A stretch of 64,000 nucleotides of DNA from Lama guanicoe. Its lineage: Eukaryota. Position numbers and translations under genes: made by a program. A model generated the notes under the pieces. That model was not told the DNA's origin and did not search any database. It saw only the letters and a list, made by a program, of their open reading frames with translations. The stretch lies in contig MU053873.1 of assembly GCA_013239625.1 (NCBI GenBank), forward strand, positions 1,378,524 through 1,442,523, read 5' to 3'. Shown piece after piece: positions 17,740-48,199 of this stretch (positions are counted from its first letter, which is position 1; each line of letters begins with the position of its first letter).

Positions 17740-18970
17740 TGGGAATTGCTCCAGGCTGCGCGTGAGGGTTTGATTGCTTGTCTAATCTTTTTCTGAGAAG
17801 AGGAGAATTCGCCAAAAAGGGTTTGGATGGCAGGAGCCCGGCTGGGTTTCTGCAACAGCTCGCGTTCTCCTTCTCTTCTCTGAGGGAGGGTCTCTGCCGC
17901 CGGCTTGGAGACCCCCTGCCGCAGGCTCCTTTTGCAGGCACTGGCCCGGGGGGGAAAATGCTCCGCTCTGGCAGGAGTACGCCGGTTGCTGCTGGGACTT
18001 CCTAGCCCGCTGGGAAGTGTTTTCGTGGTTTGGGGATACTTTCCATTGAACTGAAGGCGAAAAGACTGGACTCTCCAGGGCTTTCCCCTTTGCAGTGAAT
18101 ATGGGAAAGAATTAGGGGGTGGGAGGGAGGCAGCATGACTTGCAGTCGCCGCTGCCCTGCATCTGCCCCCAGCCCCCAGCCCGCATCTTGATGTTCCACG
18201 TATCGGCTGTACAAATATGATGAAATGGCAGCCCCGGAAGAAGGTAAGTGTCCCCGCGTGGGGACGGGGCCCTGATGCTCGACCCAGGGAGTGGTGACAG
18301 GGGGCGGTTGCCCTCGGGTCCCTCCAACCCTTTCGTAGTTTGCTGGGCGGGCAGGTAGAAGCAGCTCTGTCTCTTTAGGGACCTAGGCTAGTCCCTTAAG
18401 AATGAGTTGCCAAGTCTGGTCTGCCTCTCCTGCCCCTTAAGTTTTTCCTTCTTGGTATGCTCGTACTGGGGTTGGGTGGGTGGGGGTGTGTGTGGGGGGG
18501 GTGACAGCTTAGAAACATCCCTTTGCTTTAGAAGCCCTCTGGAGCGACCTACACGATTCGCTTTGCAGGAGCCAGTCAAGAGCTGCCAGGGTCTAAGGAC
18601 TCGGTGGTGCCTCGTCTCCAGGGGGCCGTTTGGGGTTGTACCCCCGACACATTCCAGTGTCCCCGCAGGTGGGTGTTGTAGCACCTACTTCCCCAAGGGG
18701 TTAATAGGCTCTGGGCCTCTGGCAGCCGCTTCCCCAGGGCCCCGCTGGGGGGCGAGCATCCCCAGCACAATCGCCCCACAGTTGATTCCTAGGCAGCCGG
18801 GCCGCGCGGGGCCTCCTGCCGGAGAGCCTGGGGCCCGGCGGGGCCGAGCCTTCCGCCCGCGGGGCTCCCAGGCGGCCGCGTGGGCCCGCTCGAGTGCACG
18901 CGCCGGCCATTGTCACGGGTGTGTGTCTGTGCGTGTCAGCGTGCACGGGCATGTGTGCATCGATCGTGGG
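17740..18970 (+). promoter_or_regulatory. CpG island, probable internal/alternative promoter of a + strand host gene
   Basis: Sharp rise in GC and CpG relative to the AT-rich flanks, no recognisable repeat, GC boxes (e.g. GGGGCGG ~18301, GGGCGG ~18345) and a consensus splice donor inside the island. Confidence 0.85.
18225..18243 (+). CDS. Putative coding part of an alternative first exon (MAAPEE + phase-1 junction); gene not identified
   Basis: GAAATGG Kozak context at 18225 followed by AAG|GTAAGT (donor 18244-18249) inside the CpG island. An alternative reading, MMKWQPRKK from 18217 (phase 0), cannot be excluded. Confidence 0.55.
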
Positions 18971-22214: not shown

Positions 22215-22498
22215 TAGACAGAGAATACAGACTTGTGGTTGCCAGGGGGGCGGGGGGTGGGAAGGGATAGACTGGGATTTCAAAATTGTAGAATAGATAA
22301 ACAAGATTATACTGTATAGCACAGGGAAATATACACAAAATGTTATGGTAGCTCATAAAGAAAAAAATGTGACAATGAGTATGTATATGTCCATGTATGA
22401 CTGAAAAATTGTGCTGAACACTGGAATTTGACACAACATTGTAAAATGATTATAAATCAATAAAAACTGTTAAAAAAATAAAATTAAATTAAAAAAAT
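22215..22498 (+). mobile_element. 5'-truncated young L1 (3'UTR + A-rich tail)
   Basis: Highly similar to the 3'UTR of the full-length element. Exact 14-bp TSD AAAAAGCTTATTTG at 22201-22214 and 22499-22512; TT/AAAA target. Confidence 0.95.
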
Positions 22499-27878: not shown

Positions 27879-27888
27879 TAGATGACAT
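27879..27888. repeat. Outer target-site duplication of the full-length L1 (partner 35057-35066)
   Basis: Exact TAGATGACAT at both ends; extendable to 15 bp with one mismatch (TAGATGACATATTTT vs TAGATGACATTTTTT). Confidence 0.92.
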
Positions 27889-28198
27889 TTTTTTTTTTCG
27901 GTTATTTTTCCTTTTATTCCCCACTTTTTTTTTTTACATTTTTTATTGATTCATAATCATTTTACAGTGTTGTGTCAAATTCCAGTGTTCAGCACAATTT
28001 TTCAGTCATTCATGGACATATACACACTCATTGTCACATTTTTTTCTCTGTGATTTATCATAACATTTTGTGTATATTTCCCTGTGCTATACAGTGTAAT
28101 CTTGTTTATCTATTCTACAATTTTGAAATCCCAGTCTATCCCTTCCCACCCTCTACCCCCCTGGTAACCACAAGTCTGTATTCTCTGTCCATGAGTCT

Positions 28199-31100
28199 TT
28201 AGATTCCACATATGAGCGATCTCATATGGTATTTTTCTTTCTCTTTCTGGCTTACTTCACTTAGAATGACATTCTCTAGGAGCATCCATGTTGCTGCAAA
28301 TGGCATTATGTTGTCGGTTTTTATGGCTGAGTAGTATTCCATTGTATAAATATACCACCTCTTCTTTATCCAGTCACCTGTTGATGGACATTTAGGTTGT
28401 TTCCATGTTTTGGCTATTGTAAATAGTGCTGCTATGAACATTGGGGTGCAGGTGTCATCCTGAAGTAGATTTCCTTCTGGGTACAAGCCCAGGAGTGGGA
28501 TTCCTGGGTCATATGGTAAGTCTATTCCTAGTCTTTTGAGGAATCTCCACACTGTTTTCCATAGTGGCTGCACCAAACTGCATTCCCACCAGCAGTGTAG
28601 GAGGGTTCCCCTTTCTCCACAGCCTCTCCAGCATTTGTCATTTTTGGATTTTTGAATGACGGCCATTCTGACTGGTGTGAGGTGATACCTCATTGTAGTT
28701 TTGATTTGCATTTCTCTGATAATTAGTGATATTGAACATTTTTTCATGTGCTTTTTGATCATTTGTATGTCTTCCTTGGAGAATTGCTTGTTTAGGTCTT
28801 CTGCCCATTTTTGGATTGGGTTGTTTATTTTTTTCTTATTGAGTCGTATGAGCTGCTTATATATTTTGGAGATCAAGCCTTTGTCGGTTTCACTTGCAAA
28901 AATTTTCTCCCATTCCGTAGGTTTTCTTCTTGTTTTATTTCTGGTTTCCTTTGCTCTGCAGAAGCTTGTAAGTTTCATTAGGTCCCATTTGTTTATTCTT
29001 GCTTTTATTTCTTCTAGGAGAAAATTTTTGAAATGTATGTCAGATAATGTTTTGCCTATGTTTTCCTCTAGGAGGTTTATTGTATCTTGTCTTATGTTTA
29101 AGTCTTTAATCCATTTTGAGTTGATTTTTGTATATGGTGTAAGGGTGTGTTCTAGCTTCATTGTTTTACATGCTGCTGTCCAGTTTTCCCAACACCATTT
29201 GCTGAAGAGACTGTCTTTATTCCATTGTATATTCTTGCCTCCTTTGTCGAAGATGAGTTGACCAAAAGTTTGTGGGTTCATTTCTGGGCTCTCTATTCTG
29301 TTCCATTGGTCTATATGTCTGTTTTGGTACCAATACCATGCTGTCTTGATGACTGTAGCTCTATAGTATTGTCTGAAGTCTGGGAGAGTTATTCCTCCAG
29401 CCTCTTTCTTTCTCTTCAGTAATGCTTTAGCAATTCTAGGTCTTTGATGGTTCCATATAAATTTTATTATGATTTGTTCTAGTTCTGTGAAATATGTCCT
29501 GGGTAATTGGATAGGGATTGCATTAAATCTGTAGATTGCCTTGGGCAGTGTGACCATTTTAACAATATTGATTCTTCCAATCCAAGAGCATGGAATATCT
29601 TTCCATTTTTTAAAGTCTTCTTTAATTTCCTTCATCAATGGTTTATAGTTTTCTGTGTATAATTCTTTCACCTCCTTGGTTAGATTTATTCCCAGATATT
29701 TTATTACTTTGGGTGCTATTTTAAAGGGGATTGTTTCTTTACTTTCTTTTTCTGTTGATTTATCGTTAGTGTAAAGAAATGCAACTGATTTTTGAACATT
29801 AATTTTGTAACCTGCTACCTTGCTGAATTCTTCAATCAGCTCTAGTAGCTTTTGTGTGGACCTTTTAGGGTTTTCTATATATAGTAACATGTCGTCAGCA
29901 TATAATGACACTTTTACCTCTTCTTTTCCAATTTGGATCCCTTTTATTTCTTTCTCTTGCCTGATTGCTGTGGCTAGGACTTCCAGGACTATATTGAATA
30001 GGAGTGGTGATAGTGGGCATCCTTGTCTTGTCCCAGATTTTAGTGGGAAGCTTTTGAGTTTTTCACCGTTGAGAACTATGCTGGCTGTAGGTTTGTCATA
30101 TATAGCTTTTATTATGTTGAGATATGTTCCCTCTATACCCACTTTGGCGAGAGTTTTTATCATAAATGGGTGTTGAATTTTATCAAATGCTTTTTCTGCA
30201 TCGATTGAGATGATCATGTGGTTTTTGTCCTTTCTCTTGTTGATGTGATGTATTACATTGATTGATTTGCGTATGTTGAACCAGCCTTGTGTCCCTGGGA
30301 TGAACCCCACTTGGTCATGATGTATAATCTTTTTTATGTGTTGTTGGATTCTATTTGCTAAAATTTTGGTGAGGATTTTGGCGTCTATGTTCATCAGTGA
30401 TATTGGCCTATAATTCTCTTTTTTTGTAGTGTCTTTGCCTGGTTTTGGTATCAGGGTGATGGTGGCTTCATAGAATGAGTTTGGGAGTATTCCCTCCTTT
30501 TCAATCGTCTGGAAGAGTTTGAGAAGGACTGGTATGAGTTCTTCTTTGTATGTTTGGTAGAATTCCCCGGTGAAGCCGTCCGGTCCTGGACTTTTATTTG
30601 TAGGGAGGTTTTTAATTGCTATTTCTATTTCCTTTCTAGTGATCGGATTGTTCAAGTGTTCAGTTTCTTCTTGATTCAGTTTTGGTGGACAGTATGTTTC
30701 CAGAAACTTGTCCATCTCCTCTAGGTTATCCAGTTTGGTTCCATATAGTTTTTCATAATATTCTCGTATGATATTCTGTATTTCTATTTTGTTTGTTGTA
30801 ATTTCTCCATTTTCCTTTCTTATTTTGCTAATTTGTGCTCTCTCTTTTTTCTTCTTTGTGAGTTTGGCCAGAGGTTTGTCGATTTTATTTACTTTTTCAA
30901 AAAACCAGCTTTTGGTTTGGTTGATTTTTTCTATGGTCTTGTTAATCTCTATTGTATTTAATTCCTCTCTGATCTTTATTATTTCCTTCCTTCTGCTGCT
31001 TTTTGGGGCTTTTTGTTCTTCTTTTTCTAATTGATTCAGGTGGTGGGTTAACTTGTTTATTTGAGATTGTTCTTCTTTTTTGAGGAAGGCCTGTATCGCT

Positions 31101-31996
31101 ATAAACTTCCCTCTTAGCACTGCCTTTGCTGTGTCCCATAGGTTTTGAGTGGTTGTGCTTTCATTATCATTTGTCTCAAGGTATTTTTTAATTTCAGCTT
31201 TGATTTCCTCATTGATCCATTGTTTTTTCAATAACATATTGTTTAATCTCCATGCTTTTCTTTTTTTCTCCTTTGTTTCTCTGTTGTTGATTTCCAGTTT
31301 CATGGCATTGTGGTCAGTAAAGATGCTTGAGATAATTTCTATCTTCTTAAATTTGTTGAGGTTTCTTTTGTGTCCAAGTACATGATCGATCCTGGAAAAT
31401 GTTCCATGTGCACTTGAAAAGAATGTATATTCTATTTTTTGGGGGTGTAATGCTCTGAAAATATCCACCAAATCTAGTTTTTCTATTGTAGTATTTAATT
31501 TCTCTGTTGCCTTGTTTATTTTCTGTCTGGAAGATCTGTCTAGTGATGTTAATGCAGTGTTAAAATCTCCAACTATGATTGTATTCCCATCAATATCCCC
31601 CTTTATCTCTGTTAGTAATTCTTGTATGTACTTAGGTGCTCCTATATTGGGTGCATATATATTAACGAGTGTAATATCTTCATCTTGTATCACTCCTTTA
31701 ATCATTATAAAATGTCCTTCTTTATCTTTCTTTATGGCCTTTGTTTTAAAGTCTATTTTGTCTGAAATCAGTACTGCAACACCTGCTTTTTTGGCTTTTC
31801 CATTTGCATGGAATATCCTTTTCCATCCTTTCACTCTCAATCTATATGTGTCCTTCTCCCTAAAGTGGGTCTCTTGTATGCAGCATATTGAAGGTTCTTG
31901 CTTTATTATCCAGTCTGCCACTCTATGTCTTTTGACTGGAGCATTTAGTCCATTAACATTTACAGTAATTAATGATAGATGTGTGTTTATTGCCAT
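28199..31996 (-). CDS. ORF2: LINE-1 ORF2p, 1265 aa (APE endonuclease, reverse transcriptase, C-terminal Cys-rich domain)
   Basis: Uninterrupted ORF. Endonuclease motifs NVNGLN, IQETH, NIYAPN, GDFN, SRIDH, TDHN; PIP-box-like [10 protein letters not shown] motifs [50 protein letters not shown] (CX3CX7HX4C). Confidence 0.99.
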
Positions 31997-32208
31997 TTTG
32001 AACTTATCTTTGCAGTTGAATTGGTATATCCTCTTTGTTCCTTTCTTCTTCCTTTTGTGGTTTGGTAATTTTCCTTTGTATTATCATGGATTTTATTTAA
32101 TTTTTGTGACTCCCTTGTAAATTTTTGACTTGTGGTTACCCTTTTTTGTAAATCTATTAACCTATACCCGTTTTTAATAAACTGATAATAACATGATCTC
32201 AAACCCAT
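31987..32208 (-). other. 73-codon ORF in the L1 inter-ORF spacer overlapping the ORF2 start (candidate regulatory uORF)
   Basis: ATG at 32208; ends AAA TGG CAA TAA, overlapping the ORF2 ATG by 10 nt in a different frame. Translation is unproven. Confidence 0.4.
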
Positions 32209-32394
32209 CCTACTGTTAAAAAAATTTAAAAAAAGAAAGAAAAAAAATTCTATATTTCCCTGCCTCCCTCTCCCACTCTCAGTGATTTGTATGTCTTCTT
32301 TTATAATTTCGTGTTTTCTTTATTTGTAATTCATGAGTTATCACCTTTCCAGTTGTACGTTTCTCATTTCTGTAGCATCCTGCTGCTTTTCTAT

Positions 32395-33297
32395 TTAGAA
32401 TAGCCCTTTCAATATTTCTTTTAGCATGGGTTTAGTGTTGCTAAACTCCTGCAGCTTTTTTTTGTCTGTGAAACTCTTTATTTCTCCTTCTATCCTAAAG
32501 GATAGCCTTGCTGGATAAAGTATCCTAGGCTGCATCTTTTTTTCATTCAGGGCTTTGAATATATCTTGCCACTCCCTTCTGGCCTGTAGTGTTTGTGTAG
32601 AGAAATCAGCTGAGAGCCTTATGGGGGTTCCCTTGTAGTTCACTCTTTGCTTTTCTCTTGCTGCCTTTAGAATCATTTCTTTATCCTTGACTCTGGCCAT
32701 CTTGATTATGATATGTCTTGGTGTGGGTCTATTTGGGTTCTTCCTGTTTGGGACCCTCTGAGCTTCCTGTACTTGGATATCTGATTCCTTCTTTAAGTTT
32801 GGGAAGTTTTCAGTCATGATTTCTTCAAAAACCTTTTCAATCCCCTTTGATCCTTCTTCCCCTTCTGGGACCCCTATTATGCGAAGATTGGGACGCTTTA
32901 TATTATCCCATAGGTCCCTTATGCTATTATCATTATTTTTTATTTGCTTATCTTGTAGTTCTTCTGAATGGGTGCTTTCTGTTGCCCTGTCTTCTAGATC
33001 ACTAATTCGTTCCTCTGCATTAACTAGTCGGCTTTGCACAGCTGTTAGATCATTCCTCATCTCTGTCAATGAGTTTTCCCATTTTGCTTGGCTCTTCTTT
33101 ATAGCTTCAATTTCATTTTTGACATATTTTATTTCTCTAAGCATTATCTCTTTTAATTCCTTCAGCAATTTGATCACTCCTTTTTTGAAATCTTGATCTA
33201 GTAGGCTATCGATGTCTATTTCATTGAGCTTTCTTTCAGGGGATTCCTCTTGTTCTTTTAATTGGGAAAGGTTTCTCTGCTTCTTCATCTTGCTCAT
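32395..33297 (-). CDS. ORF1: LINE-1 ORF1p, 300 aa (coiled coil, RRM and CTD; RNA-binding chaperone)
   Basis: Uninterrupted ORF with an N-terminal heptad region and conserved motifs LWDNIKRPNLRIIGVPE, TPRHIIIK, AAREK, ARREW and YPARLS. Confidence 0.98.
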   Translation of the reverse strand: MSKMKKQRNLSQLKEQEESPERKLNEIDIDSLLDQDFKKGVIKLLKELKEIMLREIKYVKNEIEAIKKSQAKWENSLTEMRNDLTAVQSRLVNAEERISDLEDRATESTHSEELQDKQIKNNDNSIRDLWDNIKRPNLRIIGVPEGEEGSKGIEKVFEEIMTENFPNLKKESDIQVQEAQRVPNRKNPNRPTPRHIIIKMARVKDKEMILKAAREKQRVNYKGTPIRLSADFSTQTLQARREWQDIFKALNEKKMQPRILYPARLSFRIEGEIKSFTDKKKLQEFSNTKPMLKEILKGLF

Positions 33298-33703
33298 ACC
33301 TCTCTGGCACTGTGGTTTATGGAGTATCAGTTGTCTATTTTGGATCTTAAGGATTTTATCTATCTAATGCCTATTTAGGAATAGAACTTAGGAAAAAAAG
33401 GAAAAAAGAAAAAAAGAAAAAAAAATAAGAGAGAGAGAAAGATTTTTAAAAGAAGGGAGAAAGAGGGTTTGAAAACAGTGCATAATGAATAATAGAAGAG
33501 CGGGTTGAAGCAGAGTTAATCGGGTGGAGACGTCCTTTTAAAACCTTTAAAAAAAAAGGGGGGTGGGGAGATGAATATATGTGTTTGAAGCCTGTGTCTA
33601 ATCAATAACAGGACATCAAAACCCAAGAGAAATAGAAATGAATTAAGAAGTAAAAATTAAGAGAGTAATTGAAAATAGAACAGGTAAAAACAGATTAGAA
33701 AAA

Positions 33704-33734
<31 letters not shown>

Positions 33735-35056
33735 AAAAACAAAAACAAAACAAAAAAAGGGGGTTGTCGGTGTTCTCCTGGAGTCTGTGTGCTTTTAATG
33801 TGAAGTCCTTCTGTCTTCGTCCTGTTTTGGAAGCTCAGCTTGTTTTCATAGGCCCTCCGTTGGCGCCCTCTTCTGTGCTGCTCCCAGCACCTGTCGGCAA
33901 GCAGATCGCGCCTCCTCCTAACACGGGGTCAGATGCAGCTCTCCTCTGCTGCGGGCGGGCGGGTCACTGCCCCTCCGGATGCCGCAGTCAGATGTTGCAG
34001 ACTGGCCAGGCAGGAGGGCGGGTCGTGCCCCCTCCCAGCACCTCGGTCAGGGGTTGTGTTCCTGCCCGACAGGCGGGGGGCCGCTCTCCCCCTGCCTGCG
34101 TCGTCGGTAGCTCCACTGCTCTGTGCGGCTGCGCGCTCTGCGTCGGCGCTCCGCCCCGGTCGCGCTCCGCGGGTGGGCTCGGGGAAGACCCAGGGGCAGC
34201 CTCGTCCCTGCTCCGGGCCAAGACCCAGCTGCTTGTTTGTCTTTGTGGAGCAAGTTCTCTGAGGGACCAAAATGGAAGGATTCTATCTGCCCTGGGCTGT
34301 AGGCCTGTCTCAGTCTGGCCCTTGAGGCTGCTAAGCCCTTCGGTGCGGACGCAGGTTTCGCCTCTGCCCCCCGCCTGGGTGCTAAGGGTCGGAGAATATG
34401 GCGGCTCTGCCTGGGCCCCGCCTCTCTTCCCCAGAAAAGTTTCCGCGGGTTTTCAGAGATGGGGGTATGCACCCTTTCCCCCGAGAGCACATCAACCTTG
34501 CTGTTTTATGGAGGGCCCAGGTTGTTCTGTCCTGTACACCCACAGCCACGGCGCCCAGCCCCTTGCAGTCCCCCAGAGCTGCCTCCGTGCAGCCGCCCCC
34601 GTCCTCCGCCTGGCTTGTGCAGCCTGGCCCTGCCCGCTGCTGCCGGCCCGCGGCTCAGGCTGGGTGTCAGGGGGACGCTCTGTGCCCATTTAACTTAGTT
34701 CTGTCAGACAAGGGCTGCTCTGTACAGATCCGAGCCTTGGAGGCTCCCCCTCCGTCCCGCTGGCCTCTCAATTGGAGAGGGGAGACCCAGAGAGCAAGCG
34801 CCAGTCCTCCTTTGCCGCTCCCTCCCCGCGGGACCTGTCCCGCGCTGCTTTGCCTTTTGTTCTTTCTTTTTTCCTTTTCTCCTACCAGATTTTTGGCGTC
34901 TTTATCTTTTGAAGAGGGCGATGATCTGTTGGAGTTCCGCAGGTGCTCTGGTTGGCTGAGTGGGTCTGTAGATGTGGGTCTTGGTGTATTTGTGGGAGAG
35001 GGTGACTTACAAGCGTCCTTCTACTCTGCCATCTTGCCCGGAAGTCCTTATTCCCC
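33298..35056 (-). promoter_or_regulatory. L1 5'UTR / internal promoter (CpG-rich ~33800-35050)
   Basis: High CpG density. YY1 motif CAAGATGGC (GCCATCTT on + at 35028-35035) about 20 nt from the 5' end, as in other mammalian L1s; adjacent ETS motif CCGGAAGT at 35038-35045; T-rich tract on the L1 sense strand ~33390-33760. Confidence 0.9.
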
Positions 35057-38000
35057 TAGATGACATATTTTGAAGACACAAGAAATCTATTTGCTTTCAG
35101 ACACCTTTTCCGTGACTTATTTTTCTAAAATTTTTTTTGTGCAAATGCTTTAAAAATCTGTAGTAAAATGCAAATACGATGGTAGCATTTGTTTGCTGTT
35201 TGTTAGCTTTGCTGGTCTATCACCCAGCAAGACATTCAGAAATAGGGTTCTTATAACCTTTTGATATAGCTGGTAGGGAGGGATTTATGAAATATCAGGA
35301 CCATGATCACTGAGAGGCCTTGTTATCAATGGAGAATGGGGTCACTTTGATGAGGACCCTGAATAGACAAGAAGTAGCACTAAGGATCTGTGTTTTTAGG
35401 GGATAGGAGAAAAAGATAGAGTGGAAATAGAGAGAGGATATTGACCACAAACTCCATGTACTTCATAATTTTAAGGTAAGACCAGTTCTAGGTAAGAGTA
35501 GGTGATGCAAAAGGACCAAGAGTAAGGGAAGAAAAGTTAATGATTACTATCAATAAAGACAGAATAACTTACCTGAAAAGTAAACAATTTATGTAGGTTT
35601 ACACAAATATGAAATAGACCTCATTGATAATAAATCATGTCACAATGTACTTGCCACTGTTCTAATTATTTCTGATGATAGCTATGGTTCTCAGGAAATT
35701 TCAAAGAACCACATAAATGCTATCCCATTTGTAGTGGACATGAAACAATTTAGAAGAACTGGGCTATTATGGAACGCATGTTTCCAGTAAATAACTGTAA
35801 ATTATCTGTAAATTGAACAGAATTCTCTGACTTAATTTTTAAAAGTGAATCCATAGTATATCTTTGCACTCCATCATTCTGTATTAAGAATGTGTGAGAA
35901 TGTAAAATCTCTAAAGCTAATTTTTAAATTATTATAAATCTATAGAATATACTGCTGATGTTTAGAAGTTGATTAAAAGAGGATAAAAATGGAGAAAGTG
36001 AGTAGATTTATTTATCGTTTTGTTTAAAATTTAAACATAACAATTCTAACTTGAAGAGATACCAGCTAAAGAAAGGATCTTAAATTATAGGTTATTGACT
36101 ATGTGTAATTACATATGCAAGTATAATTAACATTTATACTGATCAAATAAACTGGGGAAGATTAATAGGTACAGGAGTTATAATCTTACCATGGATGAGT
36201 TTTAAACACTAATATAAAAATGGGTTAAATAGAAACAGATATTTGTTCAGAGTTTTTAAAATATATAATTTCTTAGTGGATTCTATAGGCATTTTAGAGG
36301 CTGTTTCAATAATAATATTAAAAATCAAATTTCTTTTATATGATCAAATAATTAAACATTTATCAAAGCTGCTGGAGATGCAGATATGCATAAAATACAT
36401 TTTCTCTGGAATGGAAGATAAGACAATTGCATAAATACCTGAAATGTGAAGTGGCATATGTGAAGTATCACTAGAGAGAGTGAATAAAAGGAGAGGTCAC
36501 AGCTGAGTTGGTGGAAGAAGGTGAAGGGTTTGGAGTTCAGGATAGAAATTAGTAGACCAAGAGGGTTTTCCTGGTGGAGTGGCGTTTCAACTAGCCTTGA
36601 TGGGCCTACCATCCAGACGAGGAGGCCATTCCAGGTAGTGAGACTAATGGAGGGAAAGGTAAGCTCTGAGCATGTTTTCACGATAGTATGGTAGGGAATC
36701 TCAGTTTGGCTGGAGAAGAGACTTCAAATGCCAGCTGAAATCCAGACAGCAATTGGCCCCAAAGATGGTGAAATTAGGTTTTCACATGCTTATTCTCCTC
36801 CTAATGCTCAGTGAGGAACTGGTTTTTCTCACACTTTCTTATTAGAGGGAAATGAAAAACTGAGTAGGAAGCAAATGATGGGATTTTATTTGGCTCTACA
36901 AGGATTTTTATAAATACTACAGCAGCTGTTTACATGTTTTTCATGATTGCCCTATCCATATCAGAATGATTCTCATTGTTTTGTGCGTAAGTCCACATTT
37001 GACTCAATTTATGTTTGAGTGTTTGCCATTCTCATTTTGGTTGTATTCCTTTGGGTAGTATTAGCTACCTGATGATAGGAATGTCATAAATTTGGAATTC
37101 AAGCCCTTCCAACTTCAGAATGTCATCTCTTTACTACACACATTGTGTAGCACTGTTAAATAATCAGTTTGAGGTCTGTAGCACAATTCACAAAGCAACA
37201 ATCTCTCCTGTATTTCCAGATAAAGTATTTGAAGGGAATGATATTTGCAGAATGTGCTATAGTGGTAAATTTAGAGAGTACAAGATAATTACTTGTAATT
37301 ATGGCAATTTCTGTAAGGGAAATCATCTTAATTTGTTCCTACCAAGAAATAGAATTGCTCTACTCATAGCATTTGAATCCTTTTAGGAGATTAATGCTGT
37401 GTGTCTTCATTACTTTGAATGGACATTACAGCTTTTCACTACATCTGAAATTACCCCTATAATTCATGCTTCTGTTTGAATTTCTGTTAAATGCAGTCTT
37501 CACTTAAAAAAAATTATATTCCATAACCCTTGTTGGAGACACCGTATATGTCCATCCTAAGCAAATTGTGAAAGAATAGTACACCTCTACTAGGAGAATA
37601 AACTTCCAAAGAAGTCATCGTCTGGATGGTAAAAAGAGTCTTTAACTCATACTTGCAGTGTTTTCCTGTCATGCTATTCCCTGAAGATATTAAAATTTAG
37701 GTGGCTTTTAGGCTGATGGATAATTGCTGTGGCTTAAAAGGAATGCTGTTTCTCTGGGCATTTTTATGAAGACAGAGTTCTGACTACTTTTTTATTTTTA
37801 AGTATTTAATTATACCATCTGGGAAAGGTAGCTTGTATGTAGTTAAGACAAGGAGAAAATTGGAGTGGGAAGAATGGGTTTACACTAGAGTGTAATTAAT
37901 TGGAAAGAATATTGAAGAAGAAATGATGGACATATGTCTACGTAGGTGACAAAGTTGCTAAGTATGGAAGGTTAACTCATTGTTAGGCTATGATCATCTA

Positions 38001-38182: not shown

Positions 38183-39171
38183 TAAAAAATTTTTTAAATT
38201 GAAATGTAGTTGATTTACAATGTTAGTTTCAGGTGTATAGCAAAGTGATTTGGTTATACATATACATACATATATGTATTTTCTTTTCAGATTCTTTTCC
38301 ATTATATATTATTATAAGAAATGGAATATAGTTCTCAGTACTATACAGAAGGTCCTTGTTGTTTATCTATTTTATATATAGTAATGTTTGTCTGTTAATC
38401 TCTGACCCCTATTTTATCCCTCCCTGCCCTTTCCCCTTTGGTAACCATAGTTTGTTTTCTATGTCTGTGAGTCTGTTTTTGGTTTGTAAATAGAATTTGT
38501 ATCTTTTTTTCAAGATTCCACATATAAATGATACCATGTGGTATTTATCTTTGTCTGACTTTCTCTGCTCAATAAGATATGATAATCTTTAGGTCCATCC
38601 ATGTTGCTGCAAATGGCACAATTTCATTCCTTTTTATGGCTGAGTAATATTCCATCACGCGCGTGCATGCGCACGCGTGCGCACACAAACACACACACAC
38701 ACCCCAGCCACATCCTTTTTATTTAGTCATCTGTTGATGGACATATAGATTGTTTTCATGTCTGGCTATTGTAAATAGTGCTTCTATGAACATCAGGGTA
38801 CACTGTCTTTTTTGAATTATAGTTTTCTCCAGATATATGCCCAGGAGTGGGATTGCTGGATCATATGTTAAGTCTATTTTTAGTTTTTTAGGAACTTCCA
38901 TACTGTCCTTCATAGTGGCTGCACCAACAGTGTAGGAGGGTTCCTTTTTCTCCACATCCTCTCTAGCATTTATTATTTGTAGACTTTTTAATGATGGCCA
39001 TTCTGACTGGTATACGGTGATACCTCACTGTAGTTTTGATTTGCGTTTCTCTAATAATTAGTGATATTGAGCATTTTTCATGTGCCTGTTGGCCATCTGG
39101 ATGTCTTCTTTGGAGAAATGTCATATTTTTTATTTTTCTGCCTCATTTTTTTTTTTTTTTTTGACATTGAG
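38183..39171 (-). mobile_element. Older 5'-truncated L1 (ORF2 C-terminus + 3'UTR), disrupted
   Basis: Remnant peptide ...YDPAIPLLGIY...MFIEALFTIA. Exact 17-bp TSD TGAGTATAGCAGCTTTT at 38166-38182 and 39172-39188. Internal CA/CG microsatellite. Confidence 0.93.
38656..38702. repeat. Alternating purine-pyrimidine (CG/CA) microsatellite inside the old L1
   Basis: CACGCGCGTGCATGCGCACGCGTGCGCACACAAACACACACACACAC. Confidence 0.9.
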
Positions 39172-42310: not shown

Positions 42311-45300
42311 TTGTTTTTGTATCTGACACACAGAACTGAAGATTCATGAGTATTGCTCCATTATTCTTGAAATTTATATAATAAACTTATATTGGAGGAA
42401 ACCAGAGATCCAATAGCTTATATTAAATGACATATCCAGCTGTATTTTGTTAAGTCAGTAACAAATGAATTCATATTCTGATACTTCTAATGTTGGTTTG
42501 TAAGCCATTGAGCTATTGTGCCTTACTTTAGCTTATTTTAAATAAAACAAATAACTGAAGAGCTATGTTTTAGAAATATAATTTGTAGTAGAAACAAAGG
42601 GTTGAATCTTTGTTTATATGCACAATGATTTAGTAAGCAATAGAGTCAGATGTCAGAAGGCTTTTAGGTCACTGGTTGAGTAGCATTGTGGTTTATTATT
42701 TACCTTTTGCCTACCACAAATGTTCTTCTAATCCAAGAACCCAGAGTAAATGTTTGCTGAGAGTCTCTGCAATGCCTAAACAATGAAAAATTCACATGCT
42801 TTAGTGGTAGCAAAACTGAACGGCATACAGCTGCCAGCAGCCATTTCTTACTGATGTAATCCAGGAGGGTTGTGAAAGGGGAACACATGGATAGGGGCTA
42901 ACTGGAAATTAGCAGAGACCTAAATGTTTGACTAAATGTGGTTACAGTTTGGTATGGTAAAGCCCAGAGGTGAGAAATTGCCTCACATCAAAGCCAAGTG
43001 GTAAAGTGGTCCCTTTACTGGAAACAGCTAAGATGCAAAATGCAGAATTATGTATGAGATACTTTTACTTTGGGACTATATTCAAAGGAAGTTGTTATCA
43101 GACTTATACTATGGCCTGGGAAAAGAGATAATACTTCAAAACAACCTAAAAAAGACATGATCCTTGCCAGGTTACAGTTGGGACGTATATGTTTATATTC
43201 AGATATAATACAGTGTTCTAAGTATTCTAATGGAAGTATGTACTACAGATCATGGGAAGACTGAGAAAAGAATGTGAGGGAAATAGAGAAAGTTTCCTAC
43301 ACTTGAGGGAGAAATAGAGGGTTTTGTTTCAGACAGGCCATCACCATAGACAAAGGCAGGAAGATGTGGACATAAACAAAAAGACTCATTTGTTTATGTA
43401 CTTATTTTTTTGTTTATTGTGGGAATGTAAAGTATGAGGTTAAAGTAATTACTCAGAGCCTAATTTCCTTGTGAAAGGACAACCTTTTACTGGATCTTTT
43501 TATGTGCAGCTATTTCATTAGGTATCTTTCAAAGTTATTTCATAAGGATAATTTTACCTAAGTTAAGTATGCCAAAGAACCTGGCATTTCCAGGTGTAAC
43601 ATTCAAGATTTAAATTGTTCTAGTGATCCCAAAGAGTGGTACAGAAATTTGTGATCTTGATAAGAACTTAGTGGCCCATGTGCCACCTGTCAAGTTGCTT
43701 AGCTAATGAGAGAGCATAGCTGACAACGCAGCAACCTTGTATTCAACCACCTTATAAATATACCCACTTTTGGGTTACTGCTAGTGTAATCTGACTCTCC
43801 GTGCTATGCAGTGTCTACCACCATCCTTCTCTTTGTCATGATGGCCTATGTGCTATATAGTGGCTGTCATCAGCTTTTGGAAGCATTACTCTGATTTTTG
43901 CACAGACAGGTAAGGTTAATGCAGCTACTGTAATGATGTTACTTAATGGACTTTAGAATTTATTTGCATGGCAGGATTTATTTTAATGGCATTATAAATT
44001 ACTTTAGTCCATTATTTATAGATCCATCAAGGGTCTGAAAAGGGTTACCTAAAAATTTCAGTGAATTTTGTGGGGGAAAACTATATGCTGTAGTATCTTT
44101 TGCAAATTTCAGGAGTTAGAATAATCCAGAGATCTTTAGGAATGTCAGGGATCTATATCAGTTTTTAAGTTCTTAACTATTAATCTGGAATCTTTTTCTT
44201 ATCAGGTACATGGTTTGTGGTATCTGTAGTTTTTCATTAAAAATACTGAACTATGTTCTCACTATTTTGAGTAAAGTAGTAAGTGACTGGAAAAAAGTGG
44301 CAGTTTGTATTATACATTATAGCAATTGTAGTAATGTTAATAATACATTTCAGATAATATATAATTGATTTTTAAAATAAAAATTAGACTTTTAGTGTTT
44401 ATGAAGTAAGAGCTTTCTCTTTCTCTCTGAGTTTTAAAATGCTTTTAAGCTTCTTATTGAGGCATGAATAAAATTTAACTTATTTAATGTTACTGAATGG
44501 CAAAAGGTGCAGACTACATAGAATTGAGATGTATGTGAGGTTTTAAATCACAAGTGAAAAGATGTGAGGATCAGTGTTTGTGGTATCGTTATGTGATTCC
44601 AGAAAAGGCTTTTGACCATTAATCTCTGAAACCCACCCATACATTTGCCTATTTATATATAGAACCCCTTACCGCTTATCAAAGTTGTTTAGTGGGGACA
44701 ACATTCAAGTATAAAGTGAGAGGAAGACAGCTTTCTTTTGCTGTTTTGAGCTTTGCATTATTACTAATATTGTGTTGAGTATAACATTTTGTGCTTTGCT
44801 GACTTAACAGAGATACTTACATTTATTTATTCCCCTTCTTTCCTCTTAAAAATAGTCGTTGGAATTTTTAAAGAGAAATACAACTGAAGACCAGAACATC
44901 CCCATCAAATCTTTTTAAAGCTTATACTAGGCTACATTTCTTGGTCTTTTCCCCCTTGACTAGTTATTTATTTTAAGTTTTCTTGATTTAAAATAGCAAC
45001 TATAGCCATTTTGAGAAATACCTTAAGTTATGTAACTTCATCATTTCTTGTATAAGTGTTATTTCTTCTTTAAGTAGATAATCAGCCAGAAATTGATAAT
45101 TATTGCTAATATATATATGAAAAAATCACTTCATCCTTGTCATCAGAGAAATATGATACAGTTTTTTTGCTCCTATTTCTTTTGATATTATGCTTATTTA
45201 TAATTTTCTTCAAAACATCAGTTAATTACCATGTAAAGTGGAATCAAAGCAATTCTTTTTAAAGGTCTCACTCTACTACTTGTATTTGCCTAGATTGAGA

Positions 45301-47525: not shown

Positions 47526-48044
47526 TCCTCATGAGCTTTCATTGCTCACTGAATATACAGCCTTCCTCCTCTCATTCCTGTGATCCCAATCAAAACAAAA
47601 CACATGGACATGTTTCAGTCTCAGTAATATGCTCAGTAATATGATCCTTGAAATTTCAAAGTTCAAGTGGGATTGGAGTTTATCGTTAGCTGTAGGCACA
47701 TAGATGCTCAATAAATATTTGTTGAACAGATAAAAATGTATAAAATCTTGTTGGAGAGTACCCACAATAAATTCAAAAGACTCATTCCTCCCCCTGCCCC
47801 CACTTTTTTTTTTTTCGGTCTGTCCTCTCTGTGTTTAACCATAGTATATCATGCTGTTAGATTTTTGGGAAAGCCCTACAAGTTCCTTGTGGTCCATGCT
47901 TTGAGCATCGCTGATAGCTGCATTTGTATAACGTGAAGGGCAGGTAGATGGTTAGTCACATAGAATTTCTATAATTTTAAGTCTCTTTTGTAGGCAGCAT
48001 TTTTGCTTCTTCACTAACCAAAAATCTGCTTTCTAGAGATTCTT

Positions 48045-48169
48045 TTTTTAACATTTTTTATTGATTTATAATCATTTTACAATGTTGTGTCAAATTCCAG
48101 TGTAAAGCACAATTTTTCAGTTATACATGAACATATATATATTCATTGTCACTTTTTTTTCTCTGTGAG
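48045..48169 (-). mobile_element. Very short 5'-truncated L1 3' end (125 bp)
   Basis: Matches the terminal 3'UTR of the full-length L1. Exact 15-bp TSD TTTCTAGAGATTCTT at 48030-48044 and 48170-48184, followed by AA. Confidence 0.95.
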
Positions 48170-48199
48170 TTTCTAGAGATTCTTAATAGGGAATATATG

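What the first reader, a model, noticed from the sequence alone, without database searches (positions are those of the whole stretch)
27879..35071. L1 with two nested TSDs and two poly(A) tails: apparent combined 5' and 3' transduction carrying the parent's TSD
Seen, on the L1 sense strand: [ATGTCATCTA]-GGGGAATAA-L1 body-AATAAA-A11-GT-GGGGAATAA-AAGGAAAAATAACCG-A10-[ATGTCATCTA]. Besides the outer TSD (27879-27888 / 35057-35066), a second 9-bp direct repeat (TTATTCCCC on +, 27914-27922 and 35048-35056) brackets the L1 body. The 26-bp segment between the two A tails (27899-27924) supplies its own AATAAA (27913-27918), 14 nt before the outer tail. Established: L1 read-through causes 3' transduction, and upstream initiation causes short 5' transduction. 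Inference: the parent was transcribed from within its own 5' TSD and polyadenylated using a signal formed largely by its 3' TSD. This daughter would then record both parental flanks and point to a once-active source locus.
Basis: partly seen in the sequence, partly recalled or inferred. Interest (0 to 1): 0.8.

Follow-up and report, generated by a model that had tools for sequence, protein, structure and literature searches.

The report
L1 copy carrying its source's footprint
A full-length LINE-1 jumping gene carries the same 9 extra bases at both ends, inside its own insertion scar, most likely copied from the insertion scar of the older element it came from, which is a tidy example of a process already described in humans.

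Summary
The element is a full-length minus-strand L1 with open ORF1 and ORF2. It has a 10-bp outer TSD (15 bp allowing one mismatch), two A tails around a 26-nt segment with its own AATAAA, and a 9-nt 5' extension identical to part of that segment. Two of 2 sibling 3' ends in the window lack the 26-mer. In 3 of 3 contig runs the depth falls about 400-fold at the 9-mer, so it is not the family 5' end. The filled 5' junction stands in 3 of 3 contig runs, two of them not flagged as a possible source. The source locus was not found (no genome held), so the 'source TSD' reading stays an inference, about 0.78. Short 5' extensions, 3' transductions holding the source TSD, and L1s with both are described in humans (PMC2912911, PMC4859970, PMC6425141). 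The scan's earlier notes showed no such nested case; two longer 5' chimeras were noted in this genome. Verdict: new member of a known kind, low interest.

The parts
27879..27888 (-). 3' copy of the outer TSD, ATGTCATCTA on the L1 sense strand (27879-27893 if one mismatch is allowed)
27889..27898 (-). outer poly(A) tail, A10 (its last five A's overlap the relaxed TSD)
27899..27924 (-). 26-nt non-family segment between the two tails; inferred 3' transduction from the source locus
   Evidence: absent from 2 of 2 sibling 3' ends in the window; single in the window
27913..27918 (-). AATAAA inside the 26-mer, 14 nt before the outer tail; five of its six bases lie in the inner repeat; use as a signal is inferred
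27914..27922 (-). 3' copy of the inner 9-bp repeat GGGGAATAA, preceded by GT and the inner tail
27925..27935 (-). inner poly(A) tail, A11 (inferred tail of the source element)
27936..28198 (-). L1 3' UTR, with the family AATAAA at 27942-27947 followed by AAATGT
   Evidence: 93.6% and 89.4% identical to two truncated siblings in the window
28199..31996 (-). ORF2, 1265 aa, open; endonuclease and reverse transcriptase domains
   Evidence: PF03372, PF00078; aligns over residues 3-1264 to solved L1 ORF2p, 1960 bits, YADD opposite FADD
32395..33297 (-). ORF1, 300 aa, open
   Evidence: PF02994, PF17490; PF17489 just under its cut-off; 281 of 300 residues identical to P0001, no gaps
33298..35047 (-). 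L1 5' UTR, 1750 nt, G+C-rich in its first kilobase; L1 position +1 is 35047
35028..35036 (-). YY1-type core CAAGATGGC at L1 nt 12-20 counted from 35047, the offset given for human L1 (nt 12-22)
   Evidence: PMC2912911 passage
35048..35056 (-). 9-nt 5' extension GGGGAATAA (positions -9 to -1); inferred short 5' transduction of the source's 5' TSD
   Evidence: depth drop at 35047/35048 in 3 of 3 contig runs; identity to 27914-27922
35057..35066 (-). 5' copy of the outer TSD (35057-35071 if one mismatch is allowed; nick site 5'-TTTT/GA on +)

Best explanation
This is a full-length L1 insertion with two open reading frames whose 9-nt 5' extension and 26-nt 3' extension were likely both copied from one source L1's flanks, so the source's target-site duplication would appear at both ends inside the new one. 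Likely course (inferred): the source sat in a TSD of about (A)n-GT-GGGGAATAA. RNA polymerase II started about 9 nt upstream of L1 +1, inside the 5' TSD copy (the first G may be cap-derived). It read through the L1's own signal and old A tail, and was cleaved 14 nt after an AATAAA made of the 3' TSD's last five bases plus one flank base. ORF2p inserted this RNA by target-primed reverse transcription at a TTTT/GA site, giving the outer tail and outer TSD. The source may be the immediate parent, or an earlier ancestor whose tags passed through an intermediate copy. Shown: the anatomy, that neither extension is the family end, and that the 5' junction exists in several runs. Inferred: the source locus, the start site and the use of the AATAAA.
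For: Exact 9/9 repeat at the two places where a source TSD would fall, with chance p of 2e-4 to 5e-3. Family depth stops at 35047: mean depth 31,414 to 72 (X1), 128,202 to 277 (X9) and 110,910 to 265 (X13) from bin 35030-47 to bin 35048-65. The YY1-type core lies at nt 12 from 35047, as in human L1. 2 of 2 window siblings end AATAAAAA(A/C)TGTT-poly(A)-TSD without the 26-mer. The implied source TSD of 13-16 nt, starting with A's, fits the 14-16 bp peak for full-length L1 (PMC2912911 passage). AATAAA lies 14 nt from the outer tail. Established pattern: 3' transductions typically hold two A tracts and the source's 3' TSD (PMC4859970 passage); 5' extra bases of full-length L1 mostly come from upstream initiation (PMC2912911 passage).
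Against: No source locus or empty site was seen. No genome is held; 26-mer scans gave 0; no loose end at 35056/35057 is among the 22 listed, with 192 not shown. The repeat is only 9 bp and purine-rich, as normal L1 tips are. In the closest human case the 5' and 3' transductions of the de novo copy are coloured as coming from different ancestors (PMC6425141 Fig. 2 legend), so two extensions need not share a source. The letters that siblings carry just upstream of 35047 were not printed.
Confidence: 0.78

Rival explanations
1. The 3' transduction is real, but the 9-nt 5' extension has another origin (a different ancestor's flank, a variant purine-rich tip, or untemplated bases) and matches the 26-mer by chance.
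For: Both sequences are purine-rich; p rises to 2e-3 to 5e-3 under purine-rich models and many L1s were screened. Other subfamilies have G/A-rich tips in front of the YY1-type core (loose ends at 35035/35036). A human case has 5' and 3' transductions from different ancestors.
Against: The match is perfect, covers the whole extension, and starts 2 nt after the inner tail, just where a source TSD must lie. A match at that one position has p of 8e-5 or less.
Confidence: 0.1
2. Template jump: on reaching the RNA 5' end the reverse transcriptase jumped to the 3' transduced tail of this or a sister RNA and copied 9 nt before joining the target, so only the 3' flank was ever transcribed.
For: The 26-mer continues AA-GGA after the repeat and the L1 starts GGA, a 3-nt microhomology. 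Template jumping is the proposed way full-length 5' ends are joined (PMC2912911 passage).
Against: A jump at that GGA would leave four A's before it and only two are present. Upstream initiation is the simpler, described source of such bases. The RNA's own tail is already paired with cDNA at that stage (own knowledge).
Confidence: 0.07
3. Two insertions at one spot: a tiny poly(A)-tailed insert with the outer TSD came first, and the L1 later landed inside it, making the 9-bp repeat its own TSD.
For: It would also give two tails and two nested repeats. No empty or partly filled allele was seen that excludes it (one search shows presence only).
Against: The GT before the 3' copy is not matched at the 5' copy (TA there), and the nick would fall at 5'-CCCC/TA, unlike an L1 endonuclease site and with no T run to prime on the tail. 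TSDs of 9 bp or less are uncommon for full-length L1 (PMC2912911 passage).
Confidence: 0.05

Closest known systems
Human L1-Ta transduction family with 5' and 3' transductions (Salvador-Palomeque et al. 2019, PMC6425141; passages and section 7 read)
   Same: Full-length L1 with a 10-nt 5' transduction matching the bases directly upstream of the donor (donor TSD 17 nt), a 44-nt 3' transduction after an internal 17-nt A tract, an outer tail and a new TSD. 3 of 14 family members carry both kinds.
   Different: There the donors were found; here not. In the de novo copy the two transductions are coloured as from different ancestors, so no nested repeat is described. For Ref_Chr1_p31.1_a both trace to the lineage progenitor, but the 5' part is a 539-nt spliced leader. 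The poly(A) signal made by the TSD itself is not mentioned in the parts read.
L1 3' transduction (Hancks and Kazazian 2016 review, PMC4859970, passages; dog data PMC13141329, passages)
   Same: Two A homopolymers with the source's 3' TSD inside the transduced piece and a downstream AATAAA. The dog study shows that most mappable transductions are 'parentless' (3 of 27 lay behind an L1), so a missing parent is common.
   Different: The transduced piece here is very short (26 nt) and its signal overlaps the inferred TSD.
5' extranucleotides of full-length L1 from upstream initiation (Kojima 2010, PMC2912911, passages; it cites Lavie et al. 2004, which is not held and was not read)
   Same: Extra bases between the TSD and L1 +1 in an element with a YY1 core at nt 12; described as frequent in full-length L1.
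   Different: Here the origin of the extra bases can be read from the element's own 3' end, without the source locus.

Membership tests
Full-length L1 inserted by TPRT | ORF1 and ORF2 (endonuclease, reverse transcriptase) behind a 5' UTR | tested here: met
Full-length L1 inserted by TPRT | TSD and 3' poly(A) tail | tested here: met
   10-bp exact TSD, 15 bp with one mismatch; A10
Full-length L1 inserted by TPRT | Endonuclease-type nick site (YYYY/RR) | tested here: met
   TTTT/GA under the relaxed 15-bp TSD; not met under the strict 10-bp TSD
Full-length L1 inserted by TPRT | Empty site with one TSD copy in another allele or species | tested here: inconclusive
   3 of 3 contig runs hold the filled 5' junction; no empty allele among the rows shown; the raw-read run did not cover the flank
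L1 3' transduction | Non-family sequence between two A tracts, inside the TSD | tested here: met
   (only 2 siblings compared)
L1 3' transduction | Downstream poly(A) signal in the transduced piece | tested here: met
   AATAAA 14 nt before the tail; its use is inferred
L1 3' transduction | The piece maps to a unique source locus behind an L1 or at its empty site | not testable with these tools
Short L1 5' transduction | Extra bases between the TSD and family position +1 that are not the family consensus | tested here: met
   depth drop of about 400-fold; at most 0.9-1.1% of tip depth
Short L1 5' transduction | The extra bases equal the sequence directly upstream of the source element | tested here: inconclusive
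   indirect only: they equal the inferred 3' TSD copy; no source junction among the loose ends shown

The most novel reading that the evidence does not exclude
The source's TSD works as both start site and poly(A) signal and has become a heritable terminal direct repeat of a small L1 lineage: daughters with open ORFs, like this one, would pass both tags on. That would catch an L1 family in the act of gaining a new 5' tip and 3' end from a single insertion scar. The read data leave room for it: the surplus depth over 35048-35065 allows up to about 11-18 single-copy equivalents through all 9 nt, although chance 1-2-base extensions of many copies explain it equally well.
Probability: 0.12. Interest if true: 0.5.

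Novelty: new member of a known kind. Interest (0 to 1): 0.22.

Why it matters
It also gives inside evidence that short 5' extra bases of L1 are templated by the source's TSD, and that a TSD can supply the poly(A) signal. This is a neat teaching case and a lineage marker. It changes no mechanism.

Tried and rejected
Whole-genome search for the source: no genome held. Exact 26-mer: 0 in metagenome contigs and 0 in genome contigs. L1 5'-tip patterns: 0 in viral contigs, metagenome contigs and genome contigs. Family 3'-end pattern: 0 in viral contigs. ORF1p against viral contigs: 5 pattern matches, none confirmed. These collections are microbial or viral, so the blanks say nothing about the source. 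Contig break points as a test for the parent were rejected: this copy has a minority letter at 35027 (91% of X1 depth reads the other), so a parent with the majority letter would share only 29 identical bases across the junction, under the 31-letter word. The raw-read run X21 (12 in 100 read, 38 reads laid) did not reach 35048 or the flank. Only 22 loose ends were printed (192 hidden) and 24 contig pieces (7,906 hidden). The third TTATTCCCC at 44827 was checked and is unrelated. 'GGGGAATAA is the family 5' end' and 'the 26-mer is the family 3' end' were both rejected. A search for six wordings of 'donor/source/parental TSD' gave 3 papers, none on L1 by title. Lavie 2004 and Szak 2003 are not held and were not read. 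No supplements were opened; junction tables in them may hold explicit nested-TSD cases. The species was not determined. The named ORF1p relatives nearest by identity are pig at 54-62%, with peccary partial matches at 64%.

Full report
Observation. Every coordinate in the finding is right. On the L1 sense (minus) strand the order is: outer repeat ATGTCATCTA (35057-35066), GGGGAATAA (35048-35056), L1 body, AATAAA-AAATGT, A11, GT, GGGGAATAA (27914-27922), 15 more bases, A10, ATGTCATCTA (27879-27888). The inner repeat is exactly 9 bp and breaks on both sides. The outer repeat extends to 15 bp with one mismatch, which places the nick at 5'-TTTT/GA; Kojima 2010 (PMC2912911, passages) reports that short TSDs of full-length L1 often extend this way and then fit the endonuclease consensus.

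The element. ORF1 (32395-33297, 300 aa) and ORF2 (28199-31996, 1265 aa) are open and carry the L1 Pfam domains. ORF2p aligns over residues 3-1264 to solved L1 ORF2p at 1960 bits (the printed alignment was cut near residue 1000). The 5' UTR is 1750 nt. The copy is not brand new: in the 306 nt of 5' UTR laid against reads it differs from the majority letter at 7 listed places, 5 of them where the majority has CpG (2 rows of that table were not shown).

Is the repeat more than chance? A random 9-nt extension would match somewhere in the 26-mer plus four A's with p = 2.4e-4 at window composition and 1.8e-3 to 4.5e-3 under purine-rich models. 1,373 of 1,000,000 shuffles of the 26-mer hold it. At the one position where a source TSD should lie, p is 8e-5 or less. 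These values are not corrected for the number of L1s the scan looked at.

Test 1: is the 26-mer the family 3' end? Two truncated relatives in the window (22217-22481 on +, 93.6%; 48040-48171 on -, 89.4%) both end AATAAAAA(A/C)TGTT, then an A-rich tail, then their own 14-15 bp TSD, without the 26-mer. That is 2 of 2, a small sample. The 26-mer is single in the window.

Test 2: is the 9-mer the family 5' end? I laid 4 of the 24 listed runs on 34742-35281. In the three contig runs the mean depth falls from 31,414, 128,202 and 110,910 in bin 35030-35047 to 72, 277 and 265 in bin 35048-35065, and to 10.9, 28.1 and 36.7 in the flank. Summed contig depth is no copy number, so only the ratio is used. 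Even if all surplus in that bin ran through the 9-mer, it would be 0.9-1.1% of a rough lower estimate of the depth over the tip. The junction contigs end at 35018, 35019 and 35021, about 30 nt inside the L1, which puts the start of shared sequence at or within 3 nt of 35047. Counted from 35047, the core CAAGATGGC begins at nt 12, the offset given for the YY1 site of human L1. So +1 is 35047 and the 9-mer lies at -9 to -1. The letters that siblings carry upstream of 35047 were not printed, so a diverged longer tip is not strictly excluded.

Is it real DNA? Single contigs cross flank, TSD, 9-mer and L1 start in 3 of 3 contig runs, labelled as three organisms in three studies, with 0, 0 and 1 other letters. 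X1 is flagged as a possible source of the window; X9 and X13 are not. The raw-read run had no coverage of the junction. No empty allele appeared, but contigs show presence, not absence, and most rows were hidden.

The source locus. Not found. No genome is held, and the collections scanned are microbial or viral (all blank). No loose end at 35056/35057 was among the 22 printed; 192 were hidden. The surplus depth over 35048-35065 (6.6 to 9.8 times the flank depth) could be up to 11-18 copy equivalents sharing the whole 9-mer, or many copies that match one or two bases by chance. The data do not tell these apart.

Mechanism. The best reading (0.78) is that one source L1 sat in a TSD of about (A)n-GT-GGGGAATAA. 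Transcription likely began about 9 nt upstream of +1, inside the 5' TSD. It passed the L1's own signal and old tail and ended 14 nt after an AATAAA formed by the last five bases of the 3' TSD and one flank base. Target-primed reverse transcription then added the outer tail and TSD. The source may be the parent or an earlier ancestor, since a tagged daughter with open ORFs could hand both tags on. Rivals: a chance match of an unrelated 5' extension (0.10); a template jump onto the 3' tail, which has a GGA microhomology but predicts four A's where two stand (0.07); two insertions at one spot, which leaves the GT unexplained and needs a CCCC/TA nick (0.05).

What is known. Hancks and Kazazian 2016 (PMC4859970, passages) state that a 3' transduction typically has two A tracts and contains the source's 3' TSD; the same review calls L1 5' transductions rare. 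Kojima 2010 (passages) finds 5' extra bases frequent in full-length L1 and mostly due to upstream initiation. Rangwala et al. 2009 (PMC2768975, passages; author name recalled) cite Lavie et al. for variable start sites; Lavie 2004 and Szak 2003 are not held. Salvador-Palomeque et al. 2019 (PMC6425141, passages and section 7) describe a full-length L1 with a 10-nt 5' and a 44-nt 3' transduction and an internal A tract, and 3 of 14 family members with both kinds. In their de novo copy the two come from different ancestors, so the nested repeat itself is not described in what I read, and a search for six wordings of 'donor TSD' found no L1 paper. The nested repeat follows directly from the two known steps when they act on one source. 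In dogs only 3 of 27 mappable transductions lay behind an L1 (PMC13141329, passages), so a missing parent would be ordinary. A survey of camel-family repeats mentions transduction once, as a general L1 property (PMC8605555, passages). The scan's earlier notes showed no such nested case; 8 of 22 fitting notes from this genome were displayed, two of them long 5' chimeras.

Verdict. Observation confirmed; interpretation likely right but without the source locus; new member of a known kind; interest 0.22. The boldest reading not excluded is a small L1 lineage in which a source TSD became a heritable terminal repeat serving as both start site and poly(A) signal (probability 0.12, interest 0.5).

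Noticed in passing
window:35030-35047 (loose ends at 35035/35036): Related L1s share the YY1-type core but carry different G/A-rich tips in front of it (10-18 contigs per row, agreement about 0.55), so the 5' tip has turned over between subfamilies.
   Followed up: no
window:28190-28210 versus 38513-39150: Just after the ORF2 stop this L1 lacks about 36 nt, and further on about 21 nt, that an older L1 fragment in the window (73.6% identical) has; family trait or private deletion not determined.
   Followed up: partly
window:38513-39150: The old L1 fragment has a roughly 40-nt GT/GC microsatellite inside its ORF2-like region.
   Followed up: no
window:22203-22517 and 48025-48183: Two 5'-truncated young L1 copies with clean TSDs of 14 and 15 bp; the first has two extra bases at its 5' junction and a tail interrupted by T's.
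   Followed up: partly
window:33699-33758: A 60-bp imperfect (AAAAC)n run on + inside the L1 5' UTR, T-rich on the sense strand, within a longer A-rich stretch; family trait or insertion not determined.
   Followed up: no
window:17900-19000: G+C-rich, CpG-rich stretch with a splice-donor-like GGTAAGT near 18243 on +; may be a gene promoter and first exon, which would put the L1 antisense in an intron. Two frames there had no Pfam match.
   Followed up: partly
window:27854-27868: An A15 run on + lies 10 nt outside the 3' TSD, facing the element's T10; GACAT occurs at both 27869 and 27884.
   Followed up: no
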